The notes below the pieces were generated by a model. It was not told the DNA's origin. It ran no database searches and saw only the letters and a list, made by a program, of their open reading frames with translations. 64,000 nt of DNA from positions 115,750-179,749 of the forward strand of contig CALQZS010000002.1 in assembly GCA_943349945.1 (NCBI GenBank), read 5' to 3'. Both the position numbers and the translations under genes were made by a program. Shown piece after piece: positions 1,770-58,957 of this stretch. This DNA comes from Candidatus Nomurabacteria bacterium. GTDB taxonomy: Bacteria > Patescibacteriota > Minisyncoccia > Phycocordibacterales > SBAW01. How positions within the stretch are numbered: position 1 is the stretch's first letter; each line of letters starts with the position of its first letter.

Positions 1770-2231
1770 CTACTCTACTTTTAGAATTTTATACTTCTGC
1801 GCACCTTTGGGTGTATGGAACGAAAACTCATCCCCTTTCTTTTTACCCATCAATGCGCTACCCAAGGGCGAGTGGTAAGAAATTTTGCCCGCAAACAAGT
1901 CTGCCTCTTCGGCACCCACGATGGCGTAGGTGTGTTTATCGTCACCGCTTAAGTTTTGCACCGTTACGGTCGAGCCCATACCCACCGCATCTGTTTTGAC
2001 GCCGCGCACAATTTTTGCATTCTTTAAAATCGCCTCCAACTTTTGCACACGGTCTTCTACCGCTGCTTGTATATCGCGCGCCTCTTGGTACTCTGCGTTT
2101 TCTGACAAGTCGCCCAGTGAGCGAGCGTACTCCAATTGCTCGGCAACCTCTTTGCGACGTTTGGTGTGCAGCTCTTCCAGCTCTTTTGTAAGCTCTTCAA
2201 ATTTTTCTTGCGAGAGAAGTTCTTCAGTCAT
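1770..2231 (-). CDS. greA: Transcription elongation factor GreA
   Basis: 153 aa. Coiled-coil N-terminus with LSENAEY…ARD signature and a C-terminal FKBP-like domain. greA-lysS synteny. Confidence 0.85.
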   Translation of the reverse strand: MTEELLSQEKFEELTKELEELHTKRRKEVAEQLEYARSLGDLSENAEYQEARDIQAAVEDRVQKLEAILKNAKIVRGVKTDAVGMGSTVTVQNLSGDDKHTYAIVGAEEADLFAGKISYHSPLGSALMGKKKGDEFSFHTPKGAQKYKILKVE

Positions 2232-2344
2232 ATAAAATTGTTTTTAGTGGTTAGGAAATAGTGGGAATGGTGGCCGTCGAGGGATAATCTTACCCTTTAG
2301 GGCCCACAAACGCAAGCCCAAAACTCACTCCAAATACAGGAAAC

Positions 2345-4045: not shown

Positions 4046-4049
4046 CCGA

Positions 4050-4331
4050 TTATAGCGTATCGCCCCCTCGTTTGCGGAGTTTGCCTACGATGACTACGCG
4101 CAGCACGGAGCCCACAACCGCCAAGGCGGTGAGCGGGAAATATATATAGTGCAGCCACCCGGGTGCGCCGTATGCCAAATCAAGCAAAAAACCAAGCAGT
4201 ATCGCCGTAACCCAGTGGCCAGAGACAGTCGCCAGCAACACACCAAAGACTGCCAACGGCCAAAATCCTGCCAAAAAGCCAGTCGCCGTGGTCAAAAACG
4301 ACACTAATATGACTGTTCTATTGCGAAACAT
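4050..4331 (-). CDS. mreD: Small polytopic membrane protein, probable MreD
   Basis: 93 aa, hydrophobic. Sits between mreC and pbp2, overlapping mreC by 14 nt. Confidence 0.45.
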   Translation of the reverse strand: MFRNRTVILVSFLTTATGFLAGFWPLAVFGVLLATVSGHWVTAILLGFLLDLAYGAPGWLHYIYFPLTALAVVGSVLRVVIVGKLRKRGGDTL

Positions 4332-5073
4332 ACGGTTTTACAATTTCTACAAAGCGCAGCTGCAGCGGGTTGGCGGGTAGTTGCATATACAAAGTTTCAA
4401 ACGACTCACCCTCTTTTGCATCCACGTGCGTCACTGTGCCCGTGTAGCCCGCAAACACCCCAGGCAGCACAACGCTGGCGCCCACCACCACCCCCGCACC
4501 CGCAGGCACCTGGGCGCGCATAGACCCGCTGCCCTGACCCTCTACGCGCACCGGCAACACCTGCGCGTCCGCTAATGATACCAGAGCATCGTGCGTCTCG
4601 CCGGGCGCCGAGAGCAGTATCACGCGGGCAGTGGTGGGGTACACTTCTACCACAGTACCTATAACCCCAGCACCTCCTGCCAAGACCAAGTCCCCCGCCC
4701 CAACACCCTCTGCTGCCCCCGCGTCCAACACGAGCGTGTCATAGGGAATGCCGGGTGGGCGAAGCAACACGCCCGCAAGTGTCCGCGCCTGTGTGCTAGT
4801 GCGTCCTAGACGCTGTTTCAAGTCTTTATTTTCTTGCAACAAAAGGTCGCGGTCGGCCCGTGCGGCTTTGGCCGCAGCAAGCTCGCTTTGCAGTATTGCC
4901 ACTTCCGAAGCAGTAACACTATTGCGCACTGCAAGCACCGGCTCAAGCACGCGCCACAGCAGCCCCCCTAGCGCACCCTGGCCATATGCCGCCGCCGCAA
5001 AAAGCAGCGCACCCACCCCAAACACAAGGGCGATGTGTTTTGTTTTTTGCCCACCGCGAGCACGATTACGCAT
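4318..5073 (-). CDS. mreC: Rod shape-determining protein MreC
   Basis: N-terminal TM helix plus coiled coil, then Gly/Val-rich beta domains. Start taken at MRNR… so the overlap with mreB is 8 nt. Confidence 0.7.
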   Translation of the reverse strand: MRNRARGGQKTKHIALVFGVGALLFAAAAYGQGALGGLLWRVLEPVLAVRNSVTASEVAILQSELAAAKAARADRDLLLQENKDLKQRLGRTSTQARTLAGVLLRPPGIPYDTLVLDAGAAEGVGAGDLVLAGGAGVIGTVVEVYPTTARVILLSAPGETHDALVSLADAQVLPVRVEGQGSGSMRAQVPAGAGVVVGASVVLPGVFAGYTGTVTHVDAKEGESFETLYMQLPANPLQLRFVEIVKPYVSQ

Positions 5074-6118
5074 AGTCATCATCATTTTCTAAAAAGAGGT
5101 CGTGGTGCAGGTCTAAGTTTTCTAAAATCACCCCTGTCCCGCGCGCCACAGCAGTCAGCGGGTCGTCCGCCACCATAACCGGCACCTTGAGCCACTGTGC
5201 GAGCAATTGGTCGAGCCCTTTGAGCAGTGCACCCCCACCCGCAAGCGTGATGCCCGTGCGCATCACATCAGAGAGGATTTCTGGCGGCGTAGTTTCGAGC
5301 ACTTCGCGCACCGACTCTATAAGTGTGTCGATTGATTGCGAAATTGCTTCGCGGATATCTTGGTCGGTCAACACAATTTCGCGCGGCAAGCCGGTAATGA
5401 GATCGCGACCACGCACCACCGCTTCGAGCCTGCTCTCGCCTTCGATAACCGAGCCAATAGCCATCTTTACATCTTCGGCCGTTTTTTCTCCTATCAAAAT
5501 TTTAAACTCCGAACGCACGTAGGCGATGATGTCGCGGTTAAGCTTGTCGCCTGCCACGCGCAAATTTTTTGCCCGTACAATCCCGCCCAAAGAGAGCACC
5601 GCAATGTCGACGGTGCCGCCTCCAATGTCGACTATCATACTCCCCACCGCCTCGCGTATAGGCAGCCGCACGCCAAGCGCCGCAGCAATAGGCTCTTCTA
5701 CTATATATACTTCGCGCGCACCGGCGTTTTGTGCAGCGTCTTTAACCGCGCGCATCTCGACGTTGGTGATACCCGCGGGCACCCCAATGACCGTACGTGG
5801 ACCCAATAGTTGGCGCGAGGCACCCTGGGCGCGGTTTATCAAGTACGCAAGCATCTCTTCTGTGGCTTCAAAGTCCGACACCACACCGTCCACCAAAGGG
5901 CGCACGGCCATAAGGTGCCCGGGTGTACGACCCAACATGTCTTTGGCTGCCTGCCCCACCGCTACCACTTGGCCTGTTTTTTGGTTAACCGCCACCACCG
6001 ATGGCTCGGTTACTACGATGCCTTTGCCACGCAAATACACCAGAGTATTTGCAGTACCCAGGTCAATACCTACATCATTTGATACAAACGGCAGCAGCCG
6101 ATTTAAAAACTTAGCCAT
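5066..6118 (-). CDS. mreB: Actin-like rod-shape protein MreB
   Basis: 350 aa. DLGTANTLVY, VVAVNQ…, DIGGGTVD actin-fold motifs. Confidence 0.9.
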   Translation of the reverse strand: MAKFLNRLLPFVSNDVGIDLGTANTLVYLRGKGIVVTEPSVVAVNQKTGQVVAVGQAAKDMLGRTPGHLMAVRPLVDGVVSDFEATEEMLAYLINRAQGASRQLLGPRTVIGVPAGITNVEMRAVKDAAQNAGAREVYIVEEPIAAALGVRLPIREAVGSMIVDIGGGTVDIAVLSLGGIVRAKNLRVAGDKLNRDIIAYVRSEFKILIGEKTAEDVKMAIGSVIEGESRLEAVVRGRDLITGLPREIVLTDQDIREAISQSIDTLIESVREVLETTPPEILSDVMRTGITLAGGGALLKGLDQLLAQWLKVPVMVADDPLTAVARGTGVILENLDLHHDLFLENDDDYA

Positions 6119-7370
6119 TTGCGGTCAGGTGTCCTATCAGCTCTGATATGCTCTTGTGCGAGGTGTGGCCGCTTGCGCGTTCGACACACTCGAACTTGCC
6201 TGCGGCTAGCGTCTTTTCAGACACGACAACGCGCAGCGGCAACCCAAGCAGGTCGCTGTCGGCAAACTTCTCGCCGGCGCGCGCATCGCGATCGTCCCAC
6301 AAGACACTTATCCCTGCTTCAGTCAGCTCGCGATACAGCTCGGCTGCTTCGGTGTGCACGTCGGCGTTGTCTGCACCTCCAAGTTCGACCAAGTGTACGC
6401 GCAGCGGCGCCACAGACTCGGGCCAGACAATACCCCTGTCGTCCGAGAGCGCTTCGACAATAACCCCCATCAACCGGGTAATGCCTATGCCGAAGCAGCC
6501 CATAATAGGATGCGTCTCTATTCCCTCTTTATTTTTGTAGGTAAAGGTAAAGTCTTTTGTGTACTTGGTGCCGAGGTCAAAGATGTTTCCCACCTCGGAC
6601 GCTTTTGCCTGAGAGAGCACACCATTAGCACTGCAACGCGTGCAGGTATCACCCTCTTTCTGATCACTAATTTCAACATTCACACAATACGAGCAGCTGT
6701 TGCAGTACAAAATGTCGTCCTCGCCCGCCTCGGTCAGCACCATAAACTCGTACGAGAGCTTGTTGGTAAAGGCGCCGCCCGAAGCTTCGGTGGCTTTGGC
6801 CACCAACCCCAACCGCTCGTACACGCGCAAGTACGCCTCCTTGGCCTGCGCATAAAAACGGTCGAAGTCTTCTTGCGTCTCGTGGAAGGAGTACATGTCC
6901 TTCATAGTAAACTCGCGCCCGCGCATGATGCCCGACTTGGCGCGCAACTCGTCTCGGTACTTCTGCCCTATTTGATATATCACCACTGGCAGGTCTTTGT
7001 ATGACAGCACATACTCTGCGGCAATGGGGGTTACTATCTCCTCTTCGCTTTGGCCGACGGTATATTCCTTTTCGGTGCGGCTCAAAATTTTAAACACCAC
7101 GTCCACCCCGTCCCACGCGCCTGTTTGCTTCCACGGCTCGCTTGGGTGGAGTGTGGCCATGCGGATCTCTTGCCCGCCGATTTTATCCATCTCTTCGCGG
7201 ACTATCTGCTCGATACGCTCGAGCACGCGCCTCCCCAGCGGCAAGTACGAATATACGCCCGCCATCTCTTTATGGATGTAGCCGCCGCGGATAAGCAGCT
7301 GCGCGTTTTTGGAAACCTCGTCCTTTGGGGCCTCTTTGCGGGTTTTGGTAAATAGTTTGGATTGCAACAT
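6111..7370 (-). CDS. proS: Prolyl-tRNA synthetase (short form, no INS editing domain)
   Basis: 419 aa. Class II motifs 2 and 3 (FREF…SFH; GCFGIGITRL). C-terminal anticodon-binding domain. Cys-rich insert CNSCSYC…CTRC. Confidence 0.85.
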   Translation of the reverse strand: MLQSKLFTKTRKEAPKDEVSKNAQLLIRGGYIHKEMAGVYSYLPLGRRVLERIEQIVREEMDKIGGQEIRMATLHPSEPWKQTGAWDGVDVVFKILSRTEKEYTVGQSEEEIVTPIAAEYVLSYKDLPVVIYQIGQKYRDELRAKSGIMRGREFTMKDMYSFHETQEDFDRFYAQAKEAYLRVYERLGLVAKATEASGGAFTNKLSYEFMVLTEAGEDDILYCNSCSYCVNVEISDQKEGDTCTRCSANGVLSQAKASEVGNIFDLGTKYTKDFTFTYKNKEGIETHPIMGCFGIGITRLMGVIVEALSDDRGIVWPESVAPLRVHLVELGGADNADVHTEAAELYRELTEAGISVLWDDRDARAGEKFADSDLLGLPLRVVVSEKTLAAGKFECVERASGHTSHKSISELIGHLTANG

Positions 7371-7555
7371 ATAGGCATTGTACGGGGAAAAAGCGCAGCA
7401 GGCAAAGGCTGTAAATAAAGGCTATTTTGGCGCCTGCATATCCACACCAAAACCATTGACACTAACCCCTATATATGCTACAATTAGGGGTAGAGAACAC
7501 TTGTTCCTGTGCTGCGTTACACGCGGCAACAAACTATATAGAAAGGTGATAGACC

Positions 7556-8629
7556 ATGTCCGACACAGCAATGTCCGCGGCACTGGTTGCCAGCGGAGTC
7601 TCCGCACCTCGCGCGCTACACAAGAATGGCAAGCGGCGTCAGCCACGATCGTCTGCACGCCGACTCAATGCCATGCATTGGGAAAACCCCGACGTCGGAA
7701 GCCTGGTTATCCAGGCTACCAACTTCGACATCGGCGCCGTCGCCGACGAATGGCCGTTCTCGTACGCCCCCATAGCAACGGGCACCAAAATGCCCGACGT
7801 CTTGGAGGTTGGATTTCAGGTCAATCTGAAATCCGGAGTGTATGTCTACACTCGACACAACACTGCCCCCTCGGGGCAGCAGCAGGTCAAGCCGCACGAA
7901 GACGGGAGCATTCCTTCTTTCTCCGTGAACGTGAAGTGGGATGTGGTGGACGGTCAGCGTCTCGCGTATACGCGAGAAAAAGACATGGACAACATCGACA
8001 TCTTCTTCGTCCTGGAGGATGGAACATTCCTTAACCTCCAGATTGCGGTATTGTATCGAAACGGCGTCTTCTATCTGTCAGTGCAAGAGATGGGGGCGTA
8101 CCCAGTGGTTCGCATCCCGCTCGACCTGCAGCACAACAAGAAGACGGTACGCATCGGCGACGGACGGTATGCGCTGGTGACGCTTCAGGAAGAACAGTCC
8201 TTTCCAAAGGCCGACTTCCTCAAGACCATGGGCCAGATGGGCGAGCAGCTCATCGAGTTCATCGCGCAGGACTGTGTCGACGATTCGGGGAAAAGTCTTA
8301 TTCCCTACGTCGAAGCAATCCCCTGTATGGAGTGGCATCCTCCGGAAACTCCGTCGGTTACTCCGGTGGAGCGGCGTGACGGTTGGATGGGCGGGGTGGT
8401 GAAATTTTGCAACCCAATCGTATCCATCGCCGCAATCGTCTGTGCTGACACGATGGAGCGGTTGTGCAACCTTTCACTCATCCTCGACGAAGACGGCAAG
8501 TCGCTGTTGGAGCAGGGAAAGTTCCCTGTTCTACTGCCGCGCGAGCGAGTGCTGGTGCGGCTCCAAACCGCGACAGTGCGCGGCAAGACCACACAACAGA
8601 TCGTCGCTGTGCGACGCATCACAGACTAA
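7556..8629 (+). CDS. Hypothetical protein, 357 aa, GC-rich gene
   Basis: Long ORF with protein-like composition. Own terminator downstream. Divergent from proS. No motif recognised. Confidence 0.5.
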   Translation: MSDTAMSAALVASGVSAPRALHKNGKRRQPRSSARRLNAMHWENPDVGSLVIQATNFDIGAVADEWPFSYAPIATGTKMPDVLEVGFQVNLKSGVYVYTRHNTAPSGQQQVKPHEDGSIPSFSVNVKWDVVDGQRLAYTREKDMDNIDIFFVLEDGTFLNLQIAVLYRNGVFYLSVQEMGAYPVVRIPLDLQHNKKTVRIGDGRYALVTLQEEQSFPKADFLKTMGQMGEQLIEFIAQDCVDDSGKSLIPYVEAIPCMEWHPPETPSVTPVERRDGWMGGVVKFCNPIVSIAAIVCADTMERLCNLSLILDEDGKSLLEQGKFPVLLPRERVLVRLQTATVRGKTTQQIVAVRRITD

Positions 8630-24689: not shown

Positions 24690-24991
24690 CTCCGGCGCCA
24701 GGACTCGAACCTGGAACCAACTCCTTACACGTGAATCCCCCATTGCTGCGGGCGTGGACTATATCATCATCCCAACTTACAGGAAGTTGTCGGATGCGAG
24801 GCGCTTCGCGCTGCAAATCGCAGAGCTACTCCCTTGCGGGATAGTCTCTACACCTTCCCCAACATAACGTCGGGACTTGGCTCGGGATTGCCCCAAAGGG
24901 GTTTCCCCGAATTCACCTCGTTTTTCAATTCAGATTCCTCTGAAAGGCTGCCTTTAGACAGGGAGCTGCTCTACCATTGAGCTACACCGGA
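24690..24991 (-). tRNA. tRNA-Asn(GUU), interrupted in the anticodon loop by a 230-nt group I intron
   Basis: Exons fold as UCCGGUG-UA-GCUC-AAUGGUA-GAGC-A-GCUCC-CUGU|UAA-GGAGU-UGGUU-CCAGG-UUCGAGU-CCUGG-CGCCGGA-G. UCC acceptor start and G73 fit Asn. Confidence 0.65.
24728..24957 (-). ncRNA. Group I self-splicing intron
   Basis: P7 with R element GUAGAGACUAUC and S element GAUAUAGUCC. GCCAAGUCC P-like element. U at -1 paired to an internal guide GCAG. Terminal omega-G before UAAGGAGU. Confidence 0.65.
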
Positions 24992-25065
24992 ATATATCGA
25001 ACATTCAATATTATACATGTGTTTTTATTAATAACAAACTTAACACCTTGTGTTATACTTTTTGT

Positions 25066-25410
25066 ATGGATAAGGTTTGTAAAAAACATGGACAAACGAA
25101 ACATTTCCTGCGACCAGACGGGGCTTTCCGCTGCGGTAAGTGCGCTTCGAGTTGGGTAATACGAAACCGCCAGAAAAAGAAAATAAAACTAGTAGAGCAG
25201 TTTGGAGGAAAATGTATTGTCTGTGGTTATAAAAAATATGCCGGTGCATTAGATTTTCACCATCTAAATCCAAAGGAAAAGAGTTTTGCTCTGAGTGTCA
25301 AAGGCCTTTCCTATTCTTGGGAAAGTATTTTAGAAGAGGCAAAAAAGTGCGTGCTGGTGTGTAAAAATTGCCACACCGAAATTGAAGCTGGTATGACTGT
25401 GCTACAGTAA
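25066..25410 (+). CDS. HNH endonuclease
   Basis: CxxC…CxxC zinc knuckles, DFHHLNP…N…CKNCH HNH motif. About 40% GC. 74 nt from the tRNA 5' end. Confidence 0.75.
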   Translation: MDKVCKKHGQTKHFLRPDGAFRCGKCASSWVIRNRQKKKIKLVEQFGGKCIVCGYKKYAGALDFHHLNPKEKSFALSVKGLSYSWESILEEAKKCVLVCKNCHTEIEAGMTVLQ

Positions 25411-47614: not shown

Positions 47615-48928
47615 TTAGTAGCTGCGGAGGCGTTTTGCTTTATCGTGGGTACGGATGCGCTCCAGGGCCTTGGCCTCGATTTGGCGAATGCGCTCGCGGG
47701 TCACGCCAAACTTCTTGCCCACCTCTTCGAGCGTGTGGTATATACCGTCTTCAAGCCCGTGGCGGAGTTTAAGGATTTCGCGCTCTTTGGGAGATAGCTC
47801 GTCCAAAATCTCGTGCAGCTGGTCGCCCAAAATGCGGCGCGACACTTCTTGGTCGGGAGAAAGGATTTTGTCGTCTTTGATAAAGTCGCCCAAAACAGAC
47901 TTACCATCATCATCGTCGGAGCCAACCGGACTCTCGAGCGACACGGTGTCTTGGTCGATTTTTTCTATCTGGTAGATTTTGTCTACATCCACACCCATCT
48001 CAAGTGCAATTTCCTCGGCAAGTGGGTCGCGGCCCAGGTCTTGGCTCAAGCGACGCGACACCTGTTTGTATTTGGCTATGGTTTCTACCATGTGCACAGG
48101 GATGCGAATAGTGCGCGACTGGTCGGCCAAGGCGCGGGTAATAGCCTGGCGGATCCACCATGTAGCATAGGTCGAGAATTTAAATCCTTTGGTGAAGTCG
48201 AATTTGTCGACCGCCTTAAAGAGGCCAAGGTTGCCTTCTTGGATGAGGTCCAAAAGTGTGAGGTCTGGACTACGGCCTACATACTTCTTTGCAATAGAGA
48301 CCACCAAACGGAGGTTTGCACGGGCAAGCAAGTTGCGTGCCTCTGCATCCCCTTCGACGATACGCTTGGCGAAGTCGCGCTCTTGCTGTGCGTTAAGCAG
48401 CGGGTACTTACCAATTTCGCGCAGGTACATCTGGATGGAGTCGTACGAGGAGTCCGAGCGAGAGTAGCCCTTTTCTACAGGGTCTTCGGTGATCTCGAGC
48501 ATGCCGCCGCCTTCGAGCACGTCTATGTGCGCTGTGGAGAGCTTTTCGTACAGCTCTTCCAAAAAGACCACGTCGTCTTCTATATTAGGGAAAGCTTTAA
48601 GAATTTCGTCGTAGGTGATAAACCCTATTTCGCGGCCACGCGCCATCAGCTGCTCGGCCTTTTTGGTTTGCTCGTCGACTTTTTTAGAAACTTTTGCACT
48701 GGCCTTAGGAGCCACCTTCTTTACAGCCTTAGACGAGGCTACGACTTTACGGGGCTTAGGCGCCAACTTTGCACGACGTTTTGCAGCAACCTCGCGAAGT
48801 TGCCGTGCTTTTTTGACCACACTTGCACGCGCTGGAGCCGCCTTACGGACAGGGGCTTTTGCCTTCTTCTGCACCGCCTTTTTAGCAACCTTTTTCTTTT
48901 TCGCCATTTGCCACGCAGTATACCCCAA
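47615..48928 (-). CDS. rpoD: RNA polymerase sigma-70 factor RpoD with Lys/Ala-rich histone-like N-terminal tail
   Basis: Regions 1.2 through 4 are present ([16 protein letters not shown] in region 4). The first ~90 aa are a KKAxK repeat tail. Confidence 0.9.
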
Positions 48929-48955
48929 GAGTGGTAAAAAATAAAGGGTGGGTGT

Positions 48956-50581
48956 CTATAAGAATTTTTGCCGCAAGCGCTCTTTCGCCACCACACGCTC
49001 TATGTCGCCCAACAAATCGCTGGCGATTATTTCGGCCGACGAATGTTCGCCCACTTCCCGCTCAAAATCAAAACGTAGACGCTCGGCCTCGCCCGCAAGC
49101 ATGGTCTGTATCTCCTCTAGCCGCTCTGCCCCCAACAATTCAAGCAAGCGCTCTCGCTCTGAAGACGTTGCGGCAAAATAAAAAAGTAGCATACCTGCCT
49201 TGCGCTCCAGCGGCGTTGCAGGCAGAGGCTCGGGCGCAGGCACCGCTACAGACACATCGCCTTGTGGCAACGTGGGGCGTTTAGCCACTTCGGCGTGCAC
49301 CGCCGCCTCGGGCACACGCAGGCGCTCGGCCACAATGCGTATAAAGTGCGCCTGGTCTATTTTGCTCGAGAGGGCTGCAATAAGCGGCAGCAACTGCGCC
49401 TCGATAATTTTTTTGTATACGCGCTCGTCTCCTTGTCTGCCTTGCGGCACAGTGGTGCGGAGCGCATCAAGAAAAAACTCCACGGCGGTTTTGGACTGAC
49501 GCACTGCAGCGCGCAGCGCCTCTGGGTCTGCCTTGGCAATATCTGCCGGATCTTGGCCTTCGGGGAAAGTAGGTATCTTTACATCAAACCCCGCAGCAAA
49601 TGCCATAGCCGTGCTCTTGAGCCCCGAGCGCAGGCCCGCCGGGTCTGCATCAAGCGCCAGGACTAAACGCTTAGAAAGCCGCCCCAAGAGCGCTAGGTGG
49701 TCTGGGGTGAGTGCTGTACCCGAGAGTGCCGCAGTGTAGGGCAAGCCGCTTTGGTGTGCCAATACGAGATCAAATTGTCCCTCCACCAACAACATACAAT
49801 CTGCTTTGCGGATGGCATTTTTTGCCTTGTCGAACCCATAGAGTATTTTGGATTTTTTAAAAAGCGCAGTCTCAGGGCTGTTTACATATTTTGCAGGCTC
49901 CCCTTCTTCTTTGGAGCCTTCTACTTTTTCAAAATAGCGACCAGAGAAAGCGACTACCCTCCCCAAAGGGTCGCTGATGGGAAACATGATCCGCCCGCGA
50001 AATCGGTCGTACACCTCTCCTTGCCGCTTTTCTGAGCGAGCCGCGAGCCCCGCGTCTACTATTTCATCTTTTGAAAACCCTAACGCGGTAAGGTGCTCAG
50101 ACACGCTGTGCCAAGTCGCCGGCGCATATCCCAGTCGCCAGGTTTTTTTACTCTCTTCGTTTACTCCCCGCTTCGCTAGATATTCTTGTATATCGCTACG
50201 GGCAGCAAGTGTGTGTTCAAAAAAGACGGTTGCTGCCTCGCACACCTCGCGCAAGCGCTCTTCTTTGTCTTTGTCGCCTGCATCTTTTTGACCCTGGTAT
50301 TGTTTGAGCACCACCCCTGCTCGCTCGGCCAACTGCTTAAGCGCAGTAGGAAAATCAATACTCTCCATTTTTTGTACAAAAGAAAAAACATCTCCACGCT
50401 CGCCACAACCAAAGCAGATGTACGTCCCCCGCTCGGGAGAGACGTGGAAAGACGGTGTTTTTTCTTTATGAAAGGGGCACCGTGCAGTAAAGGTGCGACC
50501 CGCCTTGTTCAGCTGCACATACTGCCCCACCACTTCTGTGATATTCAACTTGTCTTTTATCTCCTGCACCTGAGAGTCCAT
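48956..50581 (-). CDS. dnaG: DNA primase
   Basis: CHC2 zinc finger (CPFHKEKTPSF…CFGCG), TOPRIM domain (EG…D…DxD). dnaG-rpoD operon. Confidence 0.9.
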   Translation of the reverse strand: MDSQVQEIKDKLNITEVVGQYVQLNKAGRTFTARCPFHKEKTPSFHVSPERGTYICFGCGERGDVFSFVQKMESIDFPTALKQLAERAGVVLKQYQGQKDAGDKDKEERLREVCEAATVFFEHTLAARSDIQEYLAKRGVNEESKKTWRLGYAPATWHSVSEHLTALGFSKDEIVDAGLAARSEKRQGEVYDRFRGRIMFPISDPLGRVVAFSGRYFEKVEGSKEEGEPAKYVNSPETALFKKSKILYGFDKAKNAIRKADCMLLVEGQFDLVLAHQSGLPYTAALSGTALTPDHLALLGRLSKRLVLALDADPAGLRSGLKSTAMAFAAGFDVKIPTFPEGQDPADIAKADPEALRAAVRQSKTAVEFFLDALRTTVPQGRQGDERVYKKIIEAQLLPLIAALSSKIDQAHFIRIVAERLRVPEAAVHAEVAKRPTLPQGDVSVAVPAPEPLPATPLERKAGMLLFYFAATSSERERLLELLGAERLEEIQTMLAGEAERLRFDFEREVGEHSSAEIIASDLLGDIERVVAKERLRQKFL

Positions 50582-50672: not shown

Positions 50673-53600
50673 TTAGATAACTTCGGACTCTACTACCTCG
50701 GGTGCCGCAGCATATTTATTGACCAGGCGCTCTTTAGGAGAACCTTTGAAGCCAGTACCTGCTGGAATAAGACGACCGATGATAACGTTTTCTTTAAGAC
50801 CTTCGAGGCGGTCTACACTACCGTACATTGCTGCTTTGATAAGCATACGAGTGGTGTTTTGGAAGGACGCTGCAGAGAGGAAGCTCTGACGAGAAAGCGA
50901 GACGTCCAAAATTCCCATCACCAATGGCTCGCTCTTTGCAGGCTCGCCACCATCTTGTACCGCTTTTTCGCTTGCATCGCGCAAGTCGCTTTCGCTGGTT
51001 ACATCGCCGACAGAGTACTCGGTGCCACCTTGGTCGGTGACGCGCACGCGCGAGAACATCTGGCGCACAATGGTCTCCAAGTGTTTTGCCGAGATACTTG
51101 CACCCTGGAGTTCGTAGATTTTTACCACCTCCGAGATCAAGTACTCTTGTGTACGCTCTTTGCCCGCGTACTTAAAGAGGTCGGACAGGTCGGCTGAACC
51201 GTCGGTCAAGAGTTGCCCCTTGGTGATGCGCTCCCCAACTTTGACAAGCGGGATGCGGCGGAAGTTTACATCGTACTCAATAGTTTCTTTTTTGCCTTTA
51301 CCACGGAATTCGAGGTCTGGAGTTATAACCAACACCTTTTCTTTGCCTTCGTCGCGGATCTCGAGCACCTCGCCCGAGACAGTTGCCACAATGGCAGGGT
51401 TGCGTGGCATGCGGCGCTCGAAGATTTCTTCAACACGTGGCAAACCTTGGGTGATGTCGCCACCTACAGAGGCTGCACCGCCGGCGTGGAAGGTACGCAT
51501 AGTGAGCTGGGTTCCTGGCTCGCCGATCGCCTGTGCGGCCACAGTACCCACAGCCTCGCCGAGTGCCACTGGTTTGGTGGTACCGAGGTCTGCACCATAA
51601 CAGCGGGCACAGATACCACGGCCTGCACGGCAGCCAATAGGAGAGCGTACATAGACAGACGCGACACCCATCTCTTCAATATGCTTGGCGTCTGCTCCCG
51701 TCACAAAGTGGCCTTTTTTGTAGATAACCTTACCTTCGGCTTCTACATCGCCTGCCAAGTAACGGCCAGTGATGTTTTGTGCCAAGAAGGTGCCGATACC
51801 CGACGCACTTTCGCGCTTAATAGTGAGGCCTTCTTTAGTGTCGCAATCATCGTGGGCAATAACCACGTCCTGCGCAACATCAAAGAGTCGGCGTGTCAGG
51901 TACCCTGCTTTTGCAGTGTTGAGCGCGGTGTCCGACAGACCTTTACGCGAACCGTGTGTAGTGATGAAGTACTCCAGCGGAGTCAAACCTTCTTTCATAG
52001 ACTTGGTAATTGGGAACTCAATTGCCTCGCCCGTTGGAGATGCGATGAGGCCTTTCATACCGGCCATCTGCGTTACTTGCGCCACCGAACCGCGGGCGCC
52101 CGAGCGCAACATGTCAGACACCGAGCCGTTGTCCGGCAGGGTCGCTGGCATCAACTTCTCTACCTCAGACTTGGCAGCATGCCAGACTTCGATGTTCATA
52201 CGGTAACGCTCTTCTTCCGACAACAAGCCGTCTTGCCAGTGTTTGACCACCTGTGCAGATTTTGCTTCTGCGGCTTCGACGATGTCGTTCTTCTCTTTTG
52301 GTACGCGGATGTCGTCGAGCGACCAAGTGATACCCGACTGGGTAACGTAGCGGAAGCCGAAGTTCTTGATACGGTCCAAGATCTCTGGGATTTTCTCTAG
52401 GCCGTAGCGTGCAATAAGGTCGTCTATCAACTTGGACAGCGCCTTCTTGTCGATACTTGCGTTAATGAATGGATAGTCACTTGGGAAGACTGTGTTGAAG
52501 AGCAGTCGGCCGACAGTAGTTTCGAAGATCTGACCACCAAAGGCGGCATACTTCTCTTTTTCTGACGGCATGACTTTTATCTTTGCTTGGAAGCCCACAT
52601 GACCGTAGTCGTATGCAAGGATGGCGCTGTTTGGATTTGGGAATGCCATACCCTCGCCCTTTGCACCCACCACCTCTTTGGTCATCCAGTAGGTGCCGAG
52701 CAAGATGTCGAGCAACTTGGTCGCAACCACAGGTTCTGAGTTACCAGGTTTGAGGATGTTTTTGGTTGCGGACATAATCTCGCGTGCCTCGGTTTGAGCC
52801 TCGGGAGACAACGGCACGTGCACCGCCATTTGGTCGCCGTCGAAGTCTGCGTTAAACGCTGGACATACAAGCGGGTGGAGCTGGATAGCGTTACCCTCGA
52901 TCAAGATAGGCTGGAAAGCTTGGATACCCAGACGGTGCAAGGTTGGTGCGCGGTTAAGCAACACGTACTTGTCGCGGATAACATCTTCGAGTATCGCCCA
53001 CACCTCTGGTACTCCTTCGTCTATAAGACGACCAGCGCCACGAATGTTGTAGGCAAGCTCTTTTTCGAGCAATTTGCCGATAACGAATGGGCGGAAGAGT
53101 TCCAGCGCCATGTGTTTTGGCAAACCACATTGATTAAGGCGAAGTTCAGGACCCACCACGATAACCGAGCGGCCCGAGTAGTCGACGCGCTTACCAAGCA
53201 AGTTCTGACGGAAGAGACCGTGTTTGCCCTTCAAGTTATCAGAGAGCGATTTGAGCGGACGTGTGCGAGCCTGGGTCGTAGCCGAAAACGCTGCACCACC
53301 GTGGCGTATAGAGTTGTCGACAAGTGCGTCGATTGCCTCCTGCAAGATGCGCTTCTCGTTGCGCAAGATAACGTCTGGCGCGTGGATTTCTATCAGTTTT
53401 TTGAGACGGTTGTTGCGGTTTATCACGCGGCGGTAGAGGTCGTTTACATCCGAAGTTGCATGACGGCCGCCGTCGAGCGCAACCATAGGGCGTAGACCCG
53501 GTGGGATAACAGGAATGCGGGTTAGGAACATCCACTCTGGGCGAACGTTTGCCCGGATCATACCGCGCAAAATAGAGAGACGCTTGCCAAGTTTTTCGCG

Positions 53601-56600
53601 CTCAGCGGCACCTGCCTTCAAAAGTGCAGTCTCGGTATTTTCTGCCATCTCTTTGAGGTTGAGCTTTTTGCACAAGTCGTACATTGCCTCGGCGCCAATA
53701 CCCGCCTCGAACATTGCACCGTACTTGATTACATAACGGTGGTATTTTGGCTCGTCAAGCACAGAGCCGACAAAGATAGACTCGATGTCGCGCTTTGCCT
53801 CGAGGAAGAGTTCTTTCATTTTGTCCTTAGACTTTTCGTCTTGAAGGTTTTTGAGTTTTTGTTTGTATTCGCTCTCAAGTTCGCCTACGATGCGCTCCTT
53901 TTCTGCTTTGTGCACCTGCGTCACTATGTAGCCTGCGAAGTAGACTACCTTTTCGAGGTCGCCACCGGAGATGCCAAGCACCATAGAGAGGCGCGACGGA
54001 ATAGCGCGAAGGAACCATACGTGCGCTACCGGCACTGCCAAGTCGACATGGCCCATGCGCTCGCGACGCACAATTGCACGAGTGATTTCGACGCCACATT
54101 TTTCACAGACAATACCTTTGTAGCGGATGCCGCGGTATTTGCCACAGTAACATTCGTAGTCGCGCTCTGGCCCGAAGATCTTTTCGTCAAAGAGTGAGTT
54201 TTTCTCTGGGCGCTGGGTACGGTAGTTGATGGTTTCTGGCTTGGTAACCTCGCCGTGCGACCATTCAAGAATTTTTTCAGGAGACGCTGGGCGGATGCGG
54301 ACAGCGTCAAAGTCAGACACCTCAGACCCAGGACCTTTGCGCACGCCCATAGGCTGGCCGCCGCGCATAAGCTCTACGTCGAGTGCCAAACCGCGAAGGG
54401 TGTGCAAGAGAACGTTAAACGACGCTGGTGCGTAGTGGTGGTTGATACGCTCGCCACGGACAATAGAGTCGAATGCAGCAGAGCGGCCCATGATGTCGTC
54501 GGACTTGATGGTGAGCATCTCGCGAAGGGTGTAGGCAGCACCATAGCCCAGGAGCGCCCACACTTCCATTTCTCCAAAACGCTGACCACCACCTTGCGCC
54601 TTACCACCAAGCGGCTGCTGGGTAATAAGCGAGTAGGGTCCAATAGAGCGCATGTGGATTTTATCTTCCACCATGTGGTGCAGCTTGAGGATGTACATGT
54701 AGCCAACGGAGATATCCTGCTCGAACTGCTCGCCGGTGCGGCCGTCGAAGAGCTTCATCTTGCCGTTTTCGTTGAAGCCTGCTTTTTTGAGCTCGCCGCG
54801 GATTTCTTCGTCAGTTGCTCCTGCAAATGGAGGACAAATTGCTTGGTAGTTGAGGCTGTTTGCCGCAAGCCCCAAGTGGAGCTCGAGGATTTGTCCTAGG
54901 TTCATACGGCTTGGCACACCAAGTGGGGTCAGAATCACGTCCACTGGGCGACCATCTTCCATGTATGGCATGTCTTCCTCGGGCAAGATGCGCGAGATAA
55001 CACCTTTGTTACCGTGGCGGCCTGCAAGTTTGTCGCCCACAGACACAGTGCGGAGCTGTGCTATTTCGATATGAATGCGCTTGATGATACCGCTTTCGAG
55101 CTGGTGCCCTGCTTCGCGGGAAAATACCTTAACGCCAATGATGCGGCCACGCTTGCCGTTTTCCATCCGGAGAGACGAGTCTTTTACATCGCGCGCTTTG
55201 TCGCCAAAGATACTGCGGAGCAAACGTTCCTCTGGGGTAAGTTGTGTTTCGCCTTTTGGTGTGATTTTACCTACCAAGATGTCGCCTGGGCGGACTTCCG
55301 AGCCAGTGCGGATAACGCCGTCCTCGTCGAGGTTGCGGAGCTTTGCTTCCGACACGTTAGGGATGTCGTGAGTGGTCTCTTCTGGCCCAAGCTTGGTGTC
55401 ACGGACGTTGCAGACAAACTCTTCGATATGGATAGAGGCGAATTTAGAATTTTTGACGAGACGCTCAGAGATGATGATTGCGTCTTCGTAGTTTGCACCC
55501 GACCAGCACATAAACGCCACGAGGGCGTTCTGGCCAAGCGCCAACTGACCTTGGTCTGAGGTAGAAGTATCGGCAAGCAAGTCGCCTTTTTTGACCTTGG
55601 TACCCACAGACACTGCTGGGCGGCCGTGCAGCGCGGTGAAGCCGTTGGTGCGTACGAAGTTAACAATTGGGTACTCTACTTCTTTACCCTTTTCGTTTTT
55701 GACCTTGATGCGCTTACCGTCTGCCTGAGTTACCACACCTGCCTCTTTGGCAATAATCAAACGGCCAGTGTCGCGCGCAGCGCGTTCTTCCATGCCGGTT
55801 GCCACAAGCGGAGCTTCAGGGATGATGCAGGGAGTAGCCTGCTTTTGCATGTTCGAACCCATGAGTGCGCGGTTTGCGTCGTCGTGCTCGAGGAATGGGA
55901 TCATCGAGGTTGCGATAGAAAATGGCTGCGCTGGGTCAACGTCGATGTAGTTTACGTCTTTGCGGGCAACACGGGTTGGTGAGCCGTTGAGGCGCACCTC
56001 CACCATGTCCTCAACAATCTTGCCGTCGTCTGCAACTTTTGTTGCACCGTGTGCAATTATTTGTTTTTCTTCTTCGGCTGCGTTTAGGTACACTACCTCG
56101 CCTGTAACATGGCCGTTCGCCACCTTTACATACGGAGTTTCGATCATGCCGAACTCATTGAGCCGCGCAAAAGTCGAGAGACGCAAAATAAGGCCGATGT
56201 TGGGGCCTTCTGGGGTGTGGATTGGGCACAGACGTCCGTAGTGCGATGGGTGCACGTCGCGTACCTCAAAACCGGCACGCTCGCGGGTCAAACCTCCTGG
56301 ACCCAAGGCCGAGAGTGTACGCAAGTGCTCGAGCTCGGTCAGCGCGTTTTCTTGCTGCATGAACTGCGAAAGCTGGTTGGTGGTGAAAAATTCTTTGATG
56401 CGTGCTTGCAGCGGGCGCGGGTTTACGAACTGCTGCGGCATAGTTGCATCCGTGTCGATAGTCGACATGCGGTCCTGGATATTGCGCTTCATGTGGGTCA
56501 AACCAACACGCAAGCGCTGCTGGAGCATCTCGCCCACATAGCGTACGCGGCGGGACCCAAGGTGGTCGATGTTGTCTTCCATCGCCTCTGGGTCATGCTC

Positions 56601-57506
56601 GAGCTTGAGCACATGGTCGAGCACGACCACCACGTCTGCGAGAGAGAGTGTTTTACGGGTAAGCTCTTTTTCGTCGAGCGACTTTTCGAATCGCTGGTTA
56701 AAGCGGTAGCGACCAACACGAGAAAGGTCGTAGCGGTCTTCGCTAAAGATAGAGTCTATATATTCGCGGGCGTTTGCGGCCGTTGCCAAGTCGCCATCGC
56801 GCAGGCGCTTGTGGATTTCGATGTATGCCTCCTCGACTGTTTTTGCAGGATCGTTTTCGAGCGCCTCTGCCATCCACTGCTTGCCGTACTCTGACTGCGC
56901 AAACAATGCCTGCAAGTCTTGGTTGCTGTGTGCACCAAGCACTCGGAGCAAGGAAGTTGCGGGGAACTTGCGCTTGCGGTCGATGCGCACCTGGAGCTGG
57001 CCGTCGGCATCTGCCTCTATTTCTATCCATGCGCCACGGGCAGGGATTATCTTTGCACCAAAGTGGCGCTTGCCCTTGACCTCGTCTGCGGTAAAAAATA
57101 CGCCGTATGAGCGTGCGAGCTGTGGCACGATAACGCGCTCGACACCGTTTATCACAAAGGTGCCGTGCTCGGTCATCATAGGAAAATCAGCAAGAAAGAT
57201 TTCTTGCTCTTTTTCTGTACCCTGGGCTTTGTTTTTGAGCTTCACAATCGCACGCAATGGGATGTCGAGCGACATCTTTTGCGCCTTTGCGTAGTGCTCG
57301 TCGAACTTTGGCTCGCCCAACTCTATCTTTGAAAACTCAAGATCAAACTTTTTGCCCGAATAGTCCTTGATGGGGGTGAACTCTTTAAAAATTTCGCGAA
57401 CTCCTTCGGTGAGGAGCTGCTTGTATGAGTCTACTTGGGCAGCGACGAGGTTTGGGGTTTCTACGCGTGGGGTGCGGTAGCGGCTGAAAAACTTTTGTTC
57501 TCGCAT
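50673..57506 (-). CDS. rpoBC: Fused RNA polymerase beta-beta-prime subunit (RpoB-RpoC in one ORF)
   Basis: The RpoB C-terminus (…SFNVLLHTLRGLALDVELM) joins through an ~18-aa linker to the RpoC N-terminus (…FDAVRIRPASPEKILEWSHGEV…CGKYRG…CEKCGVEITR). NADFDGD is present. 2277 codons from the internal Met. Confidence 0.85.
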   Translation of the reverse strand: MREQKFFSRYRTPRVETPNLVAAQVDSYKQLLTEGVREIFKEFTPIKDYSGKKFDLEFSKIELGEPKFDEHYAKAQKMSLDIPLRAIVKLKNKAQGTEKEQEIFLADFPMMTEHGTFVINGVERVIVPQLARSYGVFFTADEVKGKRHFGAKIIPARGAWIEIEADADGQLQVRIDRKRKFPATSLLRVLGAHSNQDLQALFAQSEYGKQWMAEALENDPAKTVEEAYIEIHKRLRDGDLATAANAREYIDSIFSEDRYDLSRVGRYRFNQRFEKSLDEKELTRKTLSLADVVVVLDHVLKLEHDPEAMEDNIDHLGSRRVRYVGEMLQQRLRVGLTHMKRNIQDRMSTIDTDATMPQQFVNPRPLQARIKEFFTTNQLSQFMQQENALTELEHLRTLSALGPGGLTRERAGFEVRDVHPSHYGRLCPIHTPEGPNIGLILRLSTFARLNEFGMIETPYVKVANGHVTGEVVYLNAAEEEKQIIAHGATKVADDGKIVEDMVEVRLNGSPTRVARKDVNYIDVDPAQPFSIATSMIPFLEHDDANRALMGSNMQKQATPCIIPEAPLVATGMEERAARDTGRLIIAKEAGVVTQADGKRIKVKNEKGKEVEYPIVNFVRTNGFTALHGRPAVSVGTKVKKGDLLADTSTSDQGQLALGQNALVAFMCWSGANYEDAIIISERLVKNSKFASIHIEEFVCNVRDTKLGPEETTHDIPNVSEAKLRNLDEDGVIRTGSEVRPGDILVGKITPKGETQLTPEERLLRSIFGDKARDVKDSSLRMENGKRGRIIGVKVFSREAGHQLESGIIKRIHIEIAQLRTVSVGDKLAGRHGNKGVISRILPEEDMPYMEDGRPVDVILTPLGVPSRMNLGQILELHLGLAANSLNYQAICPPFAGATDEEIRGELKKAGFNENGKMKLFDGRTGEQFEQDISVGYMYILKLHHMVEDKIHMRSIGPYSLITQQPLGGKAQGGGQRFGEMEVWALLGYGAAYTLREMLTIKSDDIMGRSAAFDSIVRGERINHHYAPASFNVLLHTLRGLALDVELMRGGQPMGVRKGPGSEVSDFDAVRIRPASPEKILEWSHGEVTKPETINYRTQRPEKNSLFDEKIFGPERDYECYCGKYRGIRYKGIVCEKCGVEITRAIVRRERMGHVDLAVPVAHVWFLRAIPSRLSMVLGISGGDLEKVVYFAGYIVTQVHKAEKERIVGELESEYKQKLKNLQDEKSKDKMKELFLEAKRDIESIFVGSVLDEPKYHRYVIKYGAMFEAGIGAEAMYDLCKKLNLKEMAENTETALLKAGAAEREKLGKRLSILRGMIRANVRPEWMFLTRIPVIPPGLRPMVALDGGRHATSDVNDLYRRVINRNNRLKKLIEIHAPDVILRNEKRILQEAIDALVDNSIRHGGAAFSATTQARTRPLKSLSDNLKGKHGLFRQNLLGKRVDYSGRSVIVVGPELRLNQCGLPKHMALELFRPFVIGKLLEKELAYNIRGAGRLIDEGVPEVWAILEDVIRDKYVLLNRAPTLHRLGIQAFQPILIEGNAIQLHPLVCPAFNADFDGDQMAVHVPLSPEAQTEAREIMSATKNILKPGNSEPVVATKLLDILLGTYWMTKEVVGAKGEGMAFPNPNSAILAYDYGHVGFQAKIKVMPSEKEKYAAFGGQIFETTVGRLLFNTVFPSDYPFINASIDKKALSKLIDDLIARYGLEKIPEILDRIKNFGFRYVTQSGITWSLDDIRVPKEKNDIVEAAEAKSAQVVKHWQDGLLSEEERYRMNIEVWHAAKSEVEKLMPATLPDNGSVSDMLRSGARGSVAQVTQMAGMKGLIASPTGEAIEFPITKSMKEGLTPLEYFITTHGSRKGLSDTALNTAKAGYLTRRLFDVAQDVVIAHDDCDTKEGLTIKRESASGIGTFLAQNITGRYLAGDVEAEGKVIYKKGHFVTGADAKHIEEMGVASVYVRSPIGCRAGRGICARCYGADLGTTKPVALGEAVGTVAAQAIGEPGTQLTMRTFHAGGAASVGGDITQGLPRVEEIFERRMPRNPAIVATVSGEVLEIRDEGKEKVLVITPDLEFRGKGKKETIEYDVNFRRIPLVKVGERITKGQLLTDGSADLSDLFKYAGKERTQEYLISEVVKIYELQGASISAKHLETIVRQMFSRVRVTDQGGTEYSVGDVTSESDLRDASEKAVQDGGEPAKSEPLVMGILDVSLSRQSFLSAASFQNTTRMLIKAAMYGSVDRLEGLKENVIIGRLIPAGTGFKGSPKERLVNKYAAAPEVVESEVI

Positions 57507-57910
57507 AATGAGTTTTGGATGAAGGCCGTTAATAATAAGTTGCTTGTAATCGCACGTTACTAAAAAATCTCGGGAGCTGCTTTGCCATAAACCAACTATG
57601 GTCAAGAGAGCTATCCACAGAGCCAAAACGCGAAAAAAGCGAGCGCATATACGCTCCCCCGCTTGGCCTCTGCGCCTCGCTTTAGGTGATTATTGCTAAC
57701 CACTATTCAATTGTGTCGAAACTTCAGCCCATAACTCATTCAATTTGAAGGTTTTAGCCTCCAAATGCCCCGCTTTGTTTCATTTACTATTGTACTCCCC
57801 TGGTTTGGGGTGTCAAGCGAATTTCCCCAGCCATGCCTAGTTTTAGAGTTCTGCACACCTTTTACTATATAAAACTGGACAAAAACTGACATTTACTGCA
57901 TATTATTTTC

Positions 57911-58957
57911 ATGGAAACAACCCGAGAAATCCCGTTTGTGCACATGAGCGGCTCTCCTAAAGAACGCGGAGTGGCTCATGGAACCGCAGTAGCATCACGT
58001 ATTGCAGACAATATTGCATTTTATAAGAGACTTTTAAAATTAGATGAGGGTGTTCGTGTTGCTCAGTCAAACAAATTCGCCTCCATTGTAGAATCCTTCA
58101 ACCCTGCCCTTAAAGAAGAGATGGACGGTATTGCAGAGGGCGCAAAAGTTGATCCGACAGATATTTACATGCTCAATGCTCGTACAGAGCTTTTGAGCAT
58201 GAGCGGCGTTGTACAAAGCGAATGCGCAACCTTCTTTTTTGGCAAAAGCGGACTTTTGTTTGAAAACTGGGACTGGTCAGAGCCATCCAAAGACATGACC
58301 GTGCTGCTTTCTATCGAACTACAAAATGGCAACAAAATACTAACCTTTACGGAAGCCGGCATGGTGGGCAAGGTGGGGATGTCTTCCGCTGGTTTTGGGG
58401 TTGCGTTTAACTATCTCTACCCTACAGGTGTCTTGGACGGAGTACCCATCCACGCCCTACTTCGCACATTATTGGAAGCAGATTCTTTTAAAGATGCCGT
58501 AGAATTGCTTTCTAAAAGCCAGTACAAGGGCACGAGCGGCAATATCCTCCTTGCGAACGCAGAAGGCCAAGCCATTGATTTTGAACTTTCAGGATCAAGC
58601 ATTAGCAGTATACCTATGACCGGCAACTCCATTGCGCACACTAATCACTACTTGGGCGGCACCGTTAATGACCCTGAGGCTGGTATGGGATTCCTCAACA
58701 ACTCATACGACCGCTATGCCCGCGCAGAGACAATACTAAAAGAAACAACTCAGTACGGGGTTGCAGAAGCAAAAAAGATTTTGACTGACCGCGCCACAGG
58801 AAACGGCATGCTCTGCCGTGACTTTATCCCAGAAGAACCCGGCCACACTCCAACTGGGACTATTGCAAGCATGGTCATGGATCTCCCAAACAAAACGCTA
58901 CACATCACACTCGACCCACAAGAAACTGGTTTGGAGTTTGTCACCTATACCCTATAG
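57911..58957 (+). CDS. Ntn-hydrolase, acyl-CoA:6-APA acyltransferase / peptidase C45-like protein
   Basis: 348 aa. Architecture, including a candidate Cys nucleophile (SECATFFFGKSG), resembles the C45/AAT family. About 45% GC. Weak call. Confidence 0.45.
   Translation: METTREIPFVHMSGSPKERGVAHGTAVASRIADNIAFYKRLLKLDEGVRVAQSNKFASIVESFNPALKEEMDGIAEGAKVDPTDIYMLNARTELLSMSGVVQSECATFFFGKSGLLFENWDWSEPSKDMTVLLSIELQNGNKILTFTEAGMVGKVGMSSAGFGVAFNYLYPTGVLDGVPIHALLRTLLEADSFKDAVELLSKSQYKGTSGNILLANAEGQAIDFELSGSSISSIPMTGNSIAHTNHYLGGTVNDPEAGMGFLNNSYDRYARAETILKETTQYGVAEAKKILTDRATGNGMLCRDFIPEEPGHTPTGTIASMVMDLPNKTLHITLDPQETGLEFVTYTL

What the first reader, a model, noticed from the sequence alone, without database searches (positions are those of the whole stretch)
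50673..57506. In-frame rpoB-rpoC fusion giving a single ~2280-aa beta-beta-prime polypeptide
One uninterrupted ORF runs from the RpoB N-terminus (…RVETPNLVAAQVDSYKQLL…) through the RpoB C-terminus (…SFNVLLHTLRGLALDVELM). A short linker RGGQPMGVRKGPGSEVSD follows, and then the RpoC N-terminus (FDAVRIRPASPEKILEWSHGEV…zinc-binding CxxC…CxxC). Fused rpoBC is known from Helicobacter/Wolbachia-type lineages but is otherwise rare. Seeing it here is a useful phylogenetic and structural marker for this lineage.
Basis: partly seen in the sequence, partly recalled or inferred. Interest (0 to 1): 0.55.

Follow-up and report, generated by a model that had tools for sequence, protein, structure and literature searches.

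The report
Fused RNA polymerase beta–beta-prime gene
In this uncultivated, small-genome bacterium (Patescibacteria/Paceibacteria) the two largest RNA polymerase subunits are encoded as one continuous 2,277-residue protein; the fusion is real and inherited across a whole clade, but it is a new example of a gene fusion already known from Helicobacter and Wolbachia.

Summary
One ORF on the minus strand (57506→50673, 2,277 aa, 253 kDa) carries a complete RpoB, an 18-residue linker and a complete RpoC.

It is not a sequencing error:
- The identical protein lies on 12 contigs; the three places shown come from three different assemblies.
- 92 protein clusters (90% identity level; 51–100% identical to the query), about 88 of them the window's own clade, are fused.
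- 52 of 52 independent metagenome loci of the clade are in frame, with several in-frame length changes in the linker.
- The nearest outgroups keep a stop codon and a separate rpoC.

The conserved half of the linker (RKTPGAExSDF) is the former RpoC N-terminal tail. The old rpoC start position is not kept as a start codon across the clade, which argues against a separately translated β′.

Neighbour-joining bootstraps indicate at least three independent fusions within Patescibacteria, none related to the Helicobacter event. Fused forms make up 31 of the 150 best-scoring 50%-identity representatives.

I found no paper reporting the fusion in this phylum.

Verdict: new member of a known kind, modest interest. 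The most likely mechanism is a tethered ββ′ that guarantees 1:1 stoichiometry and assembly.

Side finding: a conserved structured leader RNA, with promoter and terminator, sits immediately upstream of rpoBC.

The parts
50673..57506 (-). rpoBC: single ORF, 2,277 codons plus stop (50673-50675); predicted 253.2-kDa ββ′ polypeptide
54366..57506 (-). β (RpoB) module, residues 1-1047: Pfam Rpb2 domains 1, 2, 3, 45, 6, 7; GRHGNKG and FGEMEVW motifs
54312..54365 (-). Linker RGGQPMGVRKGPGSEVSD, residues 1048-1065. The first half is variable and is the remnant of the β C-tail. The second half is conserved in the clade (RKTPGAExSDF) and is the former β′ N-terminal tail.
54348..54350 (-). ATG for Met1053, at the position of the ancestral rpoC start codon. 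In the clade this position is GTT/GTG/GTC/GTA/ATG/other, so it is not conserved as a start codon.
50676..54311 (-). β′ (RpoC) module, residues 1066-2277: Pfam Rpb1 domains 1-5; zinc motif at 1119; NADFDGD at 1552; bridge helix at 1856; trigger loop at 1995
57507..57626 (-). Spurious N-terminal extension of the mechanical ORF (TTG start). It is not part of the gene and overlaps the leader.
57789..57816 (-). σ70-type promoter-like site TTGACA-16-TACAAT (11/12); conserved as TTGACn...TATACT in relatives
57625..57788 (-). Conserved structured leader RNA upstream of rpoBC (several hairpins). It ends in a G+C hairpin plus T-run (57641-57656), which looks like a terminator or attenuator. Its role is inferred, not shown.
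48956..50581 (-). dnaG (primase), 91 nt downstream of rpoBC on the same strand
47615..48928 (-). rpoD (σ70 family; called as 430 aa) following dnaG. The order rpoB(C)-dnaG-rpoD is also found in unfused relatives.

Best explanation
This is a genuine, vertically inherited gene fusion. In an ancestor of this Paceibacteria subclade the rpoB stop codon, the end of the β tail and the short rpoB-rpoC spacer were lost. Translation now runs from β straight into the former N-terminal tail of β′.

The product is inferred to be one 253-kDa ββ′ chain that folds into the normal RNA polymerase core. The 18-residue segment (β tail remnant plus β′ N-tail) acts as a flexible tether between two termini that lie close together in the assembled enzyme.

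Inferred consequences are obligatory 1:1 synthesis of β and β′ and a simpler assembly step. There is no change in catalytic chemistry, because all catalytic and zinc motifs are intact.

Shown: gene structure, conservation, origin of the linker, independence from other fusions. Inferred: single-chain expression and any benefit.
For: Gene structure:
- One ORF with complete β and β′ domain sets.
- Intact NADFDGD, zinc motif, bridge helix and trigger loop.

Conservation:
- The identical protein is on 12 contigs; the three places shown are from three assemblies.
- 92 clusters at 51-100% identity all span the junction. The distance from SFNVL to ASPE varies from 34 to 50 residues (43-50 in the window's own lineage), always in frame.
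- 52/52 metagenome loci of the clade are in frame, and 11/11 outgroup loci are unfused.
- No separate β or β′ member is present in the clusters of the clade that were inspected.

Origin of the linker:
- Its conserved half matches the N-tail of unfused β′: L149 has MSTYKNTQPETEQFD; the fused P0088 has MNSNYKNPGAETDQF joined directly to β.
- Unfused sister genomes have spacers of only 12-85 nt between rpoB and rpoC.

Phylogeny and feasibility:
- The main fused clade is monophyletic in 200/200 bootstraps.
- Other natural fusions have linkers down to about 10 residues or fewer, so the two termini must lie near each other.
- A synthetic E. coli β-β′ fusion is reported to be functional (cited in the paper read).
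Against: - No protein-level evidence exists for this uncultivated lineage, so a single polypeptide is inferred from DNA only.
- Met1047 (the ELM motif) is ATG in 39/45 distinct sequences. The gene's true start lacks a Shine-Dalgarno motif, so internal initiation cannot be excluded from sequence alone.
- From my own knowledge, not checked here: H. pylori engineered to have separate β and β′ is viable. If so, a selective benefit of tethering is unproven even in the best-studied case.
- The structure prediction of the junction fragment failed (pLDDT 39.5), so the geometry is not modelled here.
Confidence: 0.88

Rival explanations
1. Artefact: a sequencing, assembly or binning error removed a stop codon or frameshift between ordinary rpoB and rpoC genes.
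For: Single-contig fused calls can mislead. The reverse error also occurs: NCBI annotated only the β′ part (1,234 aa) of a fused ORF in L148.
Against: - Identical protein on 12 contigs; three assemblies among the places shown.
- 52/52 independent loci from dozens of metagenomes are in frame.
- The linker shows in-frame indels and amino-acid conservation.
- Outgroups found by the same scan are unfused.
Confidence: 0.01
2. The ORF is fused but two proteins are still made, either by internal translation initiation near the old rpoC start (Met1053 or Met1047) or by proteolytic cleavage of the linker.
For: - The window keeps ATG at the ancestral rpoC start position.
- Met1047 is ATG in 39/45 distinct sequences.
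- The true start has no Shine-Dalgarno motif, so the lack of one before the internal Met codons is uninformative.
Against: - At the relic start position the clade uses GTT 12, GTG 12, GTC 5, GTA 4, ATG 3 and others 9. Only 15/45 are ATG or GTG, and valine codon use there resembles the gene average.
- Nothing marks a cleavage site.
- If separate proteins were needed, selection would be expected to restore a stop codon.
Confidence: 0.08
3. The fusion shares ancestry with, or was transferred from, the Helicobacter/Wolbachia-type fused genes.
For: Same gene order and the same kind of junction.
Against: - Both halves group with unfused Patescibacteria (67% identity to L001), far from Helicobacter muridarum (about 44% identity).
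- The linkers are unrelated in sequence and length.
- Unfused lineages separate the fused clades at 200/200 bootstraps.
Confidence: 0.01
4. The fused gene is a decaying or redundant copy, and functional separate rpoB and rpoC genes lie elsewhere in the genome.
For: Only 64 kb of the genome can be seen here.
Against: - All catalytic motifs are intact.
- Strong conservation (76-100% identity) across the main clade.
- No separate close homologues in the clusters inspected.
- Conserved promoter, leader and dnaG-rpoD context.
Confidence: 0.02

Closest known systems
rpoB-rpoC fusion of Helicobacteraceae (e.g. H. pylori; here H. muridarum, locus L051, 2,891 aa)
   Same: In-frame β→β′ fusion with a short, non-conserved linker between the β C-terminal helix and the β′ ...ASPE/D motif. 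Both modules are complete. It is cited as the classical case in the paper read.
   Different: - Independent origin and an unrelated linker (34 versus 28 residues between LDV.. and ASP).
- The protein here is about 600 aa shorter.
- This gene is followed by dnaG-rpoD and preceded by its own promoter and leader, not by rplJ-rplL.
rpoBC fusion of Wolbachia
   Same: Same kind of fusion in a small-genome, host-dependent bacterium (otherwise my own knowledge).
   Different: Not examined directly here. It is an alphaproteobacterial lineage, so a common origin is excluded by the placement of this protein among Patescibacteria.
Mycoplasma wenyonii 'multifunctional fusion protein' WP_014849752.1 (P0125, 2,648 aa) and about 30 other fused 50%-identity clusters
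   Same: A single chain carrying the β C-terminal and β′ N-terminal regions.
   Different: The M. wenyonii linker is much longer (roughly 75 to 135 residues, depending on how it is measured). Sequences are distant (35-60% identity) and the lineages differ.
Other fused Patescibacteria lineages: the clade P0090/P0091/P0092/P0121/L007, and the P0088/L147/L148 lineage
   Same: Same phylum, similar protein size (2,209-2,296 aa), same rpoBC-dnaG context.
   Different: - They are separate events.
- In P0088 the β reading frame joins exactly at the rpoC ATG, while a relative with about 80% nucleotide identity (L149) keeps a stop, an 11-nt spacer and a different frame.
Engineered E. coli β-β′ fusion (Severinov and co-workers; cited as reference 21 in the paper read)
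   Same: Same topology (β C-terminus tethered to β′ N-terminus); reported to be functional.
   Different: Artificial construct; not a natural lineage trait.

Membership tests
Bacterial RNA polymerase β subunit (RpoB) | Full set of Rpb2-type domains (1, 2, 3, external-1, 6, 7) above Pfam cut-offs | tested here: met
   all six families pass, covering aa 19-1047; top matches among solved structures are β chains.
Bacterial RNA polymerase β′ subunit (RpoC) | Rpb1 domains 1-5 plus the catalytic NADFDGD, N-terminal zinc motif, bridge helix and trigger loop | tested here: met
   aa 1065-2160; motifs at 1119, 1552, 1856, 1995.
Natural rpoB-rpoC (ββ′) gene fusions | No stop codon or frameshift between the last β domain and the first β′ domain | tested here: met
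   continuous frame through 54312-54365.
Natural rpoB-rpoC (ββ′) gene fusions | The fused state is reproducible in independent assemblies and conserved in relatives (not an artefact) | tested here: met
   12 contigs carry the identical protein; 92 clusters and 52/52 loci are fused.
Natural rpoB-rpoC (ββ′) gene fusions | Expressed and functional as one polypeptide | not testable with these tools
   Needs proteomics or expression. Only indirect support is available: the internal start position is not conserved as a start codon.
Helicobacter/Wolbachia fusion lineage (same evolutionary event) | Fused gene descends from the same fusion event (groups with those taxa and shares a homologous linker) | tested here: not met
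   groups with unfused Patescibacteria; the linker is unrelated to that of H. muridarum. Wolbachia was not sampled directly.
Known RNA families (Rfam 15), for the upstream leader | A covariance-model match at or near the gathering score | tested here: not met
   no match at E ≤ 1 in 57400-58000.

The most novel reading that the evidence does not exclude
The fusion is one part of a lineage-specific rewiring of RNA polymerase production. In these Paceibacteria rpoB(C) has left the ribosomal-protein operon and sits directly upstream of dnaG and rpoD. It is preceded by a previously undescribed, conserved, multi-hairpin leader RNA ending in a terminator. This leader could be an attenuator that senses RNA polymerase or nucleotide supply. 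Repeated β-β′ tethering in this phylum would then be an adaptation, for example compensating for weak assembly help in tiny cells, rather than a neutral accident.
Probability: 0.15. Interest if true: 0.55.

Novelty: new member of a known kind. Interest (0 to 1): 0.33.

Why it matters
1. It gives a rare-genomic-change marker for one well-defined Paceibacteria subclade. The marker is homoplastic across the phylum.
2. It is a practical annotation trap. These genes are labelled only as 'β′', or are truncated to the β′ part (L148). That can disturb marker-gene phylogenies and completeness estimates that expect separate rpoB and rpoC genes.
3. Three or more independent fusions, each with close unfused relatives, offer a natural comparative system for asking why β and β′ are sometimes tethered. 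That question is still open for Helicobacter.
4. A compact natural single-chain ββ′ (253 kDa) could simplify recombinant work on RNA polymerase from this uncultivated radiation.

Tried and rejected
- **Structure prediction.** AlphaFold2 on a 264-aa junction fragment (alignment A1, 12 sequences) gave mean pLDDT 39.5 and pTM 0.34. It is unusable, so no fold search was run. A larger fragment was prepared but not submitted, because no distance read-out is available.
- **Genome scan.** It therefore missed the window's own clade.
- **Apparent frame bias.** In the first seven loci of that scan, and in others I checked by hand, rpoB and rpoC seemed to share a reading frame. I rejected this as a ranking bias: tblastn extends through a stop codon when the frames match. 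I draw no frequency from it.
- **Motif regexes.** My first regular expressions were too strict. I replaced them with looser patterns and with BLAST.
- **A supposedly unfused relative.** The 'unfused β′' member P0276 in the P0088 cluster is an annotation truncation of a fused ORF. The unfused β P0273 is real.
- **Internal initiation at the relic start.** Codon usage at that position does not support it.
- **Leader RNA.** Rfam gave no match. RNAalifold on the raw MAFFT alignment recovered only two helices; block-wise folding and pair counts were needed.
- **Literature.** Lane & Darst 2010 and Zakharova et al. 1999 are not in the held library. Seven literature searches found no report of this fusion in CPR/Patescibacteria.
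- **Taxonomy.** Finer taxonomy than 'Candidatus Paceibacterota / Patescibacteria' could not be obtained.
Full report
**1. Observation**

The window holds one stop-free ORF on the minus strand, from 57626 (mechanical TTG start) or 57506 (ATG) down to 50673. The ATG at 57506 is the true start. The N-terminus MREQK(F/Y)FSR(F/Y) is conserved in relatives, whereas the sequence upstream is a conserved non-coding leader. The gene callers of the three assemblies shown also called 2,277 aa.

Pfam finds the full β set (Rpb2 domains 1, 2, 3, 45, 6, 7; aa 19-1047), directly followed by the full β′ set (Rpb1 domains 1-5; aa 1065-2160). The linker RGGQPMGVRKGPGSEVSD is residues 1048-1065, at window 54312-54365.

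The zinc motif, NADFDGD, bridge helix and trigger loop are intact. The calculated mass is 253.2 kDa.

**2. Is it an artefact? No.**

- The identical protein occurs on 12 contigs; the three places shown are from NCBI GCA_943359535.1, GCA_943353785.1 and a Logan assembly of ERR5863109.
- A search of 5.8 billion proteins returned 92 clusters (51-100% identity) that all span the junction. They are annotated 'Candidatus Paceibacterota' or 'Patescibacteria group'. About 88 of them belong to the window's own clade.
- A metagenome scan with clade-specific motifs fetched 63 loci. All 52 of the main clade are in frame across the junction. The 11 more distant loci have stops or a frame change.
- The distance from SFNVL to ASPE ranges from 34 to 50 residues across the fused clusters (43-50 in the window's own lineage), always in frame. 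The second half of the linker (RKTPGAExSDF) is conserved. The frame is therefore maintained by selection.

**3. How the fusion arose**

Unfused relatives (L001-L006, L008) end β a few residues after the LDV motif. A spacer of 12-85 nt follows, and then β′ starts as M-x(3-5)-...-DF-x-x-I.

A second lineage shows the process directly. L149-L151 carry β...KKDAESKEKKIASDKNI*, an 11-nt spacer, and then MSTYKNTQPETEQFD. The fused L147/L148 (about 80% nucleotide identity to L149) read ...LDVELKKKK-MNSNYKNPGAETDQF, so β joins exactly at the rpoC ATG.

The conserved half of the window's linker aligns with this β′ N-tail. Met1053 (54348-54350) therefore sits at the ancestral rpoC start. Across 45 distinct clade sequences that codon is GTT 12, GTG 12, GTC 5, GTA 4, ATG 3 and others 9. 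It is conserved as a hydrophobic residue, not as a start codon. This argues against routine separate initiation of β′.

**4. Distribution and independence**

Neighbour-joining with 200 bootstraps gave the following (first tree):
- The main fused clade is monophyletic (200/200).
- A second fused Patescibacteria clade (P0090, P0091, P0092, P0121, L007) is monophyletic (200/200). It lies outside a group (200/200) that contains the main clade together with unfused L001-L004.
- The fused P0088 pairs with the unfused L149 (200/200).

There were therefore at least three independent fusions, or, less parsimoniously, several fissions. Helicobacter muridarum (L051), recovered as a positive control, is distant, and its linker is unrelated.

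In an exhaustive HMMER search of 1.84 billion 50%-identity representatives, 31 of the best 150 carry both halves. One is Mycoplasma wenyonii WP_014849752.1. The fusion is therefore rare but recurrent.

No fused chain appears among the top solved structures.

**5. Mechanism**

Shown:
- One gene with both modules complete.
- A linker made of the two former tails.
- Inheritance across a clade.

Inferred:
- One ββ′ chain folds into the usual core enzyme.
- The tether enforces equimolar synthesis and removes one assembly step.

The geometry is plausible. Natural fusions tolerate linkers of about 10 residues or fewer, and a synthetic E. coli fusion is reported to work.

Whether tethering gives a benefit is unknown. 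From my own knowledge, H. pylori tolerates experimental separation of the two subunits.

**6. Literature**

The held library names only Helicobacteraceae and Wolbachia as natural fusions. Seven searches combining rpoB/rpoC/rpoBC/fusion with CPR, Patescibacteria or Parcubacteria terms found no report. I therefore rate this a new member of a known kind.

**7. Surroundings**

rpoBC is not preceded by rplJ-rplL. It is followed on the same strand by dnaG and rpoD, an order shared with unfused relatives.

Upstream lies a near-consensus promoter (57816-57789), followed by a conserved RNA element of about 160 nt (57625-57788) that ends in a terminator-like hairpin. The evidence for this element is:
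- *Structure.* Block-wise folding shows a variable hairpin, a core hairpin (GUAUCGAG...UUUCGAUAC, covarying to GUUUUGA/UCAAAAC), two further hairpins and the terminator.
- *Pairing.* Pair counts give 88% of cells paired, against 28-53% for slid controls. Eight pairs show compensatory changes.
- *Position.* A covariance model finds the element once per locus, always just upstream of rpoBC, in 43 loci plus the window.
- *Unfused relatives.* Weak, individually non-significant hits lie at the same position in L002, L004, L135 and L147. By eye the shared ACGAUUGAGU motif also appears in L001, L004, L147 and L149, so the leader seems to predate the fusion.
- *Database.* It matches no Rfam family.

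**8. Verdict**

Novelty is modest: a known kind of fusion in a new phylum, arising recurrently. The upstream leader RNA is the most open lead.

Noticed in passing
window 57625-57816 (-): A conserved promoter plus a structured RNA of about 160 nt ending in a terminator-like hairpin lies immediately upstream of rpoBC. A covariance model finds it in 43 related loci, always at this position. It has covariation support and no Rfam match. A divergent form (motif ACGAUUGAGU) seems present upstream of rpoB in unfused relatives. It may be an attenuator or leader, or a small RNA.
   Followed up: partly
window 24691-24991 (-); Rfam hit 24736-25022: A tRNA-Asn(GUU) gene is interrupted in its anticodon loop by a group I intron of about 230 nt (Rfam RF00028, 67 bits). 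ARAGORN finds the tRNA only after in-silico splicing. ARAGORN reports no other tRNA in the 64 kb.
   Followed up: partly
window 25048-25410 (+): A 120-aa ORF with HNH-endonuclease-like Cys/His motifs (CGKC...HHLNP...CKNCH) lies next to the intron-containing tRNA on the opposite strand. It may be a free-standing homing endonuclease. This is judged by eye only.
   Followed up: no
window 47615-50581 (-): rpoBC is followed by dnaG and rpoD and is not preceded by rplJ/rplL. The same rpoC-dnaG-rpoD order occurs in unfused relatives (L001-L004, L148, L149). This cluster of transcription and replication-priming genes appears typical of the group.
   Followed up: partly
L147 4379-4500; L148 803-7702; L149 7644-7800: This is a second, recent and independent fusion in a Zambryskiibacteria-like lineage. 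The β frame joins exactly at the rpoC ATG in L147/L148. Relatives L149-L151 (about 80% nucleotide identity) keep a 15-residue longer β tail, a stop and an 11-nt spacer.
   Followed up: yes
L148 (GCA_038058135.1, JBBUBT010000005.1) 803-7702: In the gene calls on record, only the β′ part of a fused 2,300-codon ORF appears as a protein (MEK7175782.1, 1,234 aa), and no β product is listed. Fused rpoBC genes are elsewhere labelled simply 'β′'. This is an annotation pitfall for marker-gene work.
   Followed up: yes
proteins P0094, P0095-P0101, P0122-P0139, P0125: Other fused ββ′ proteins of 2,000-3,160 aa exist in unrelated lineages. Examples are a 3,132-aa form on contigs of up to 4.8 Mb, and Mycoplasma wenyonii WP_014849752.1. 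Most of their taxa were not identified.
   Followed up: partly
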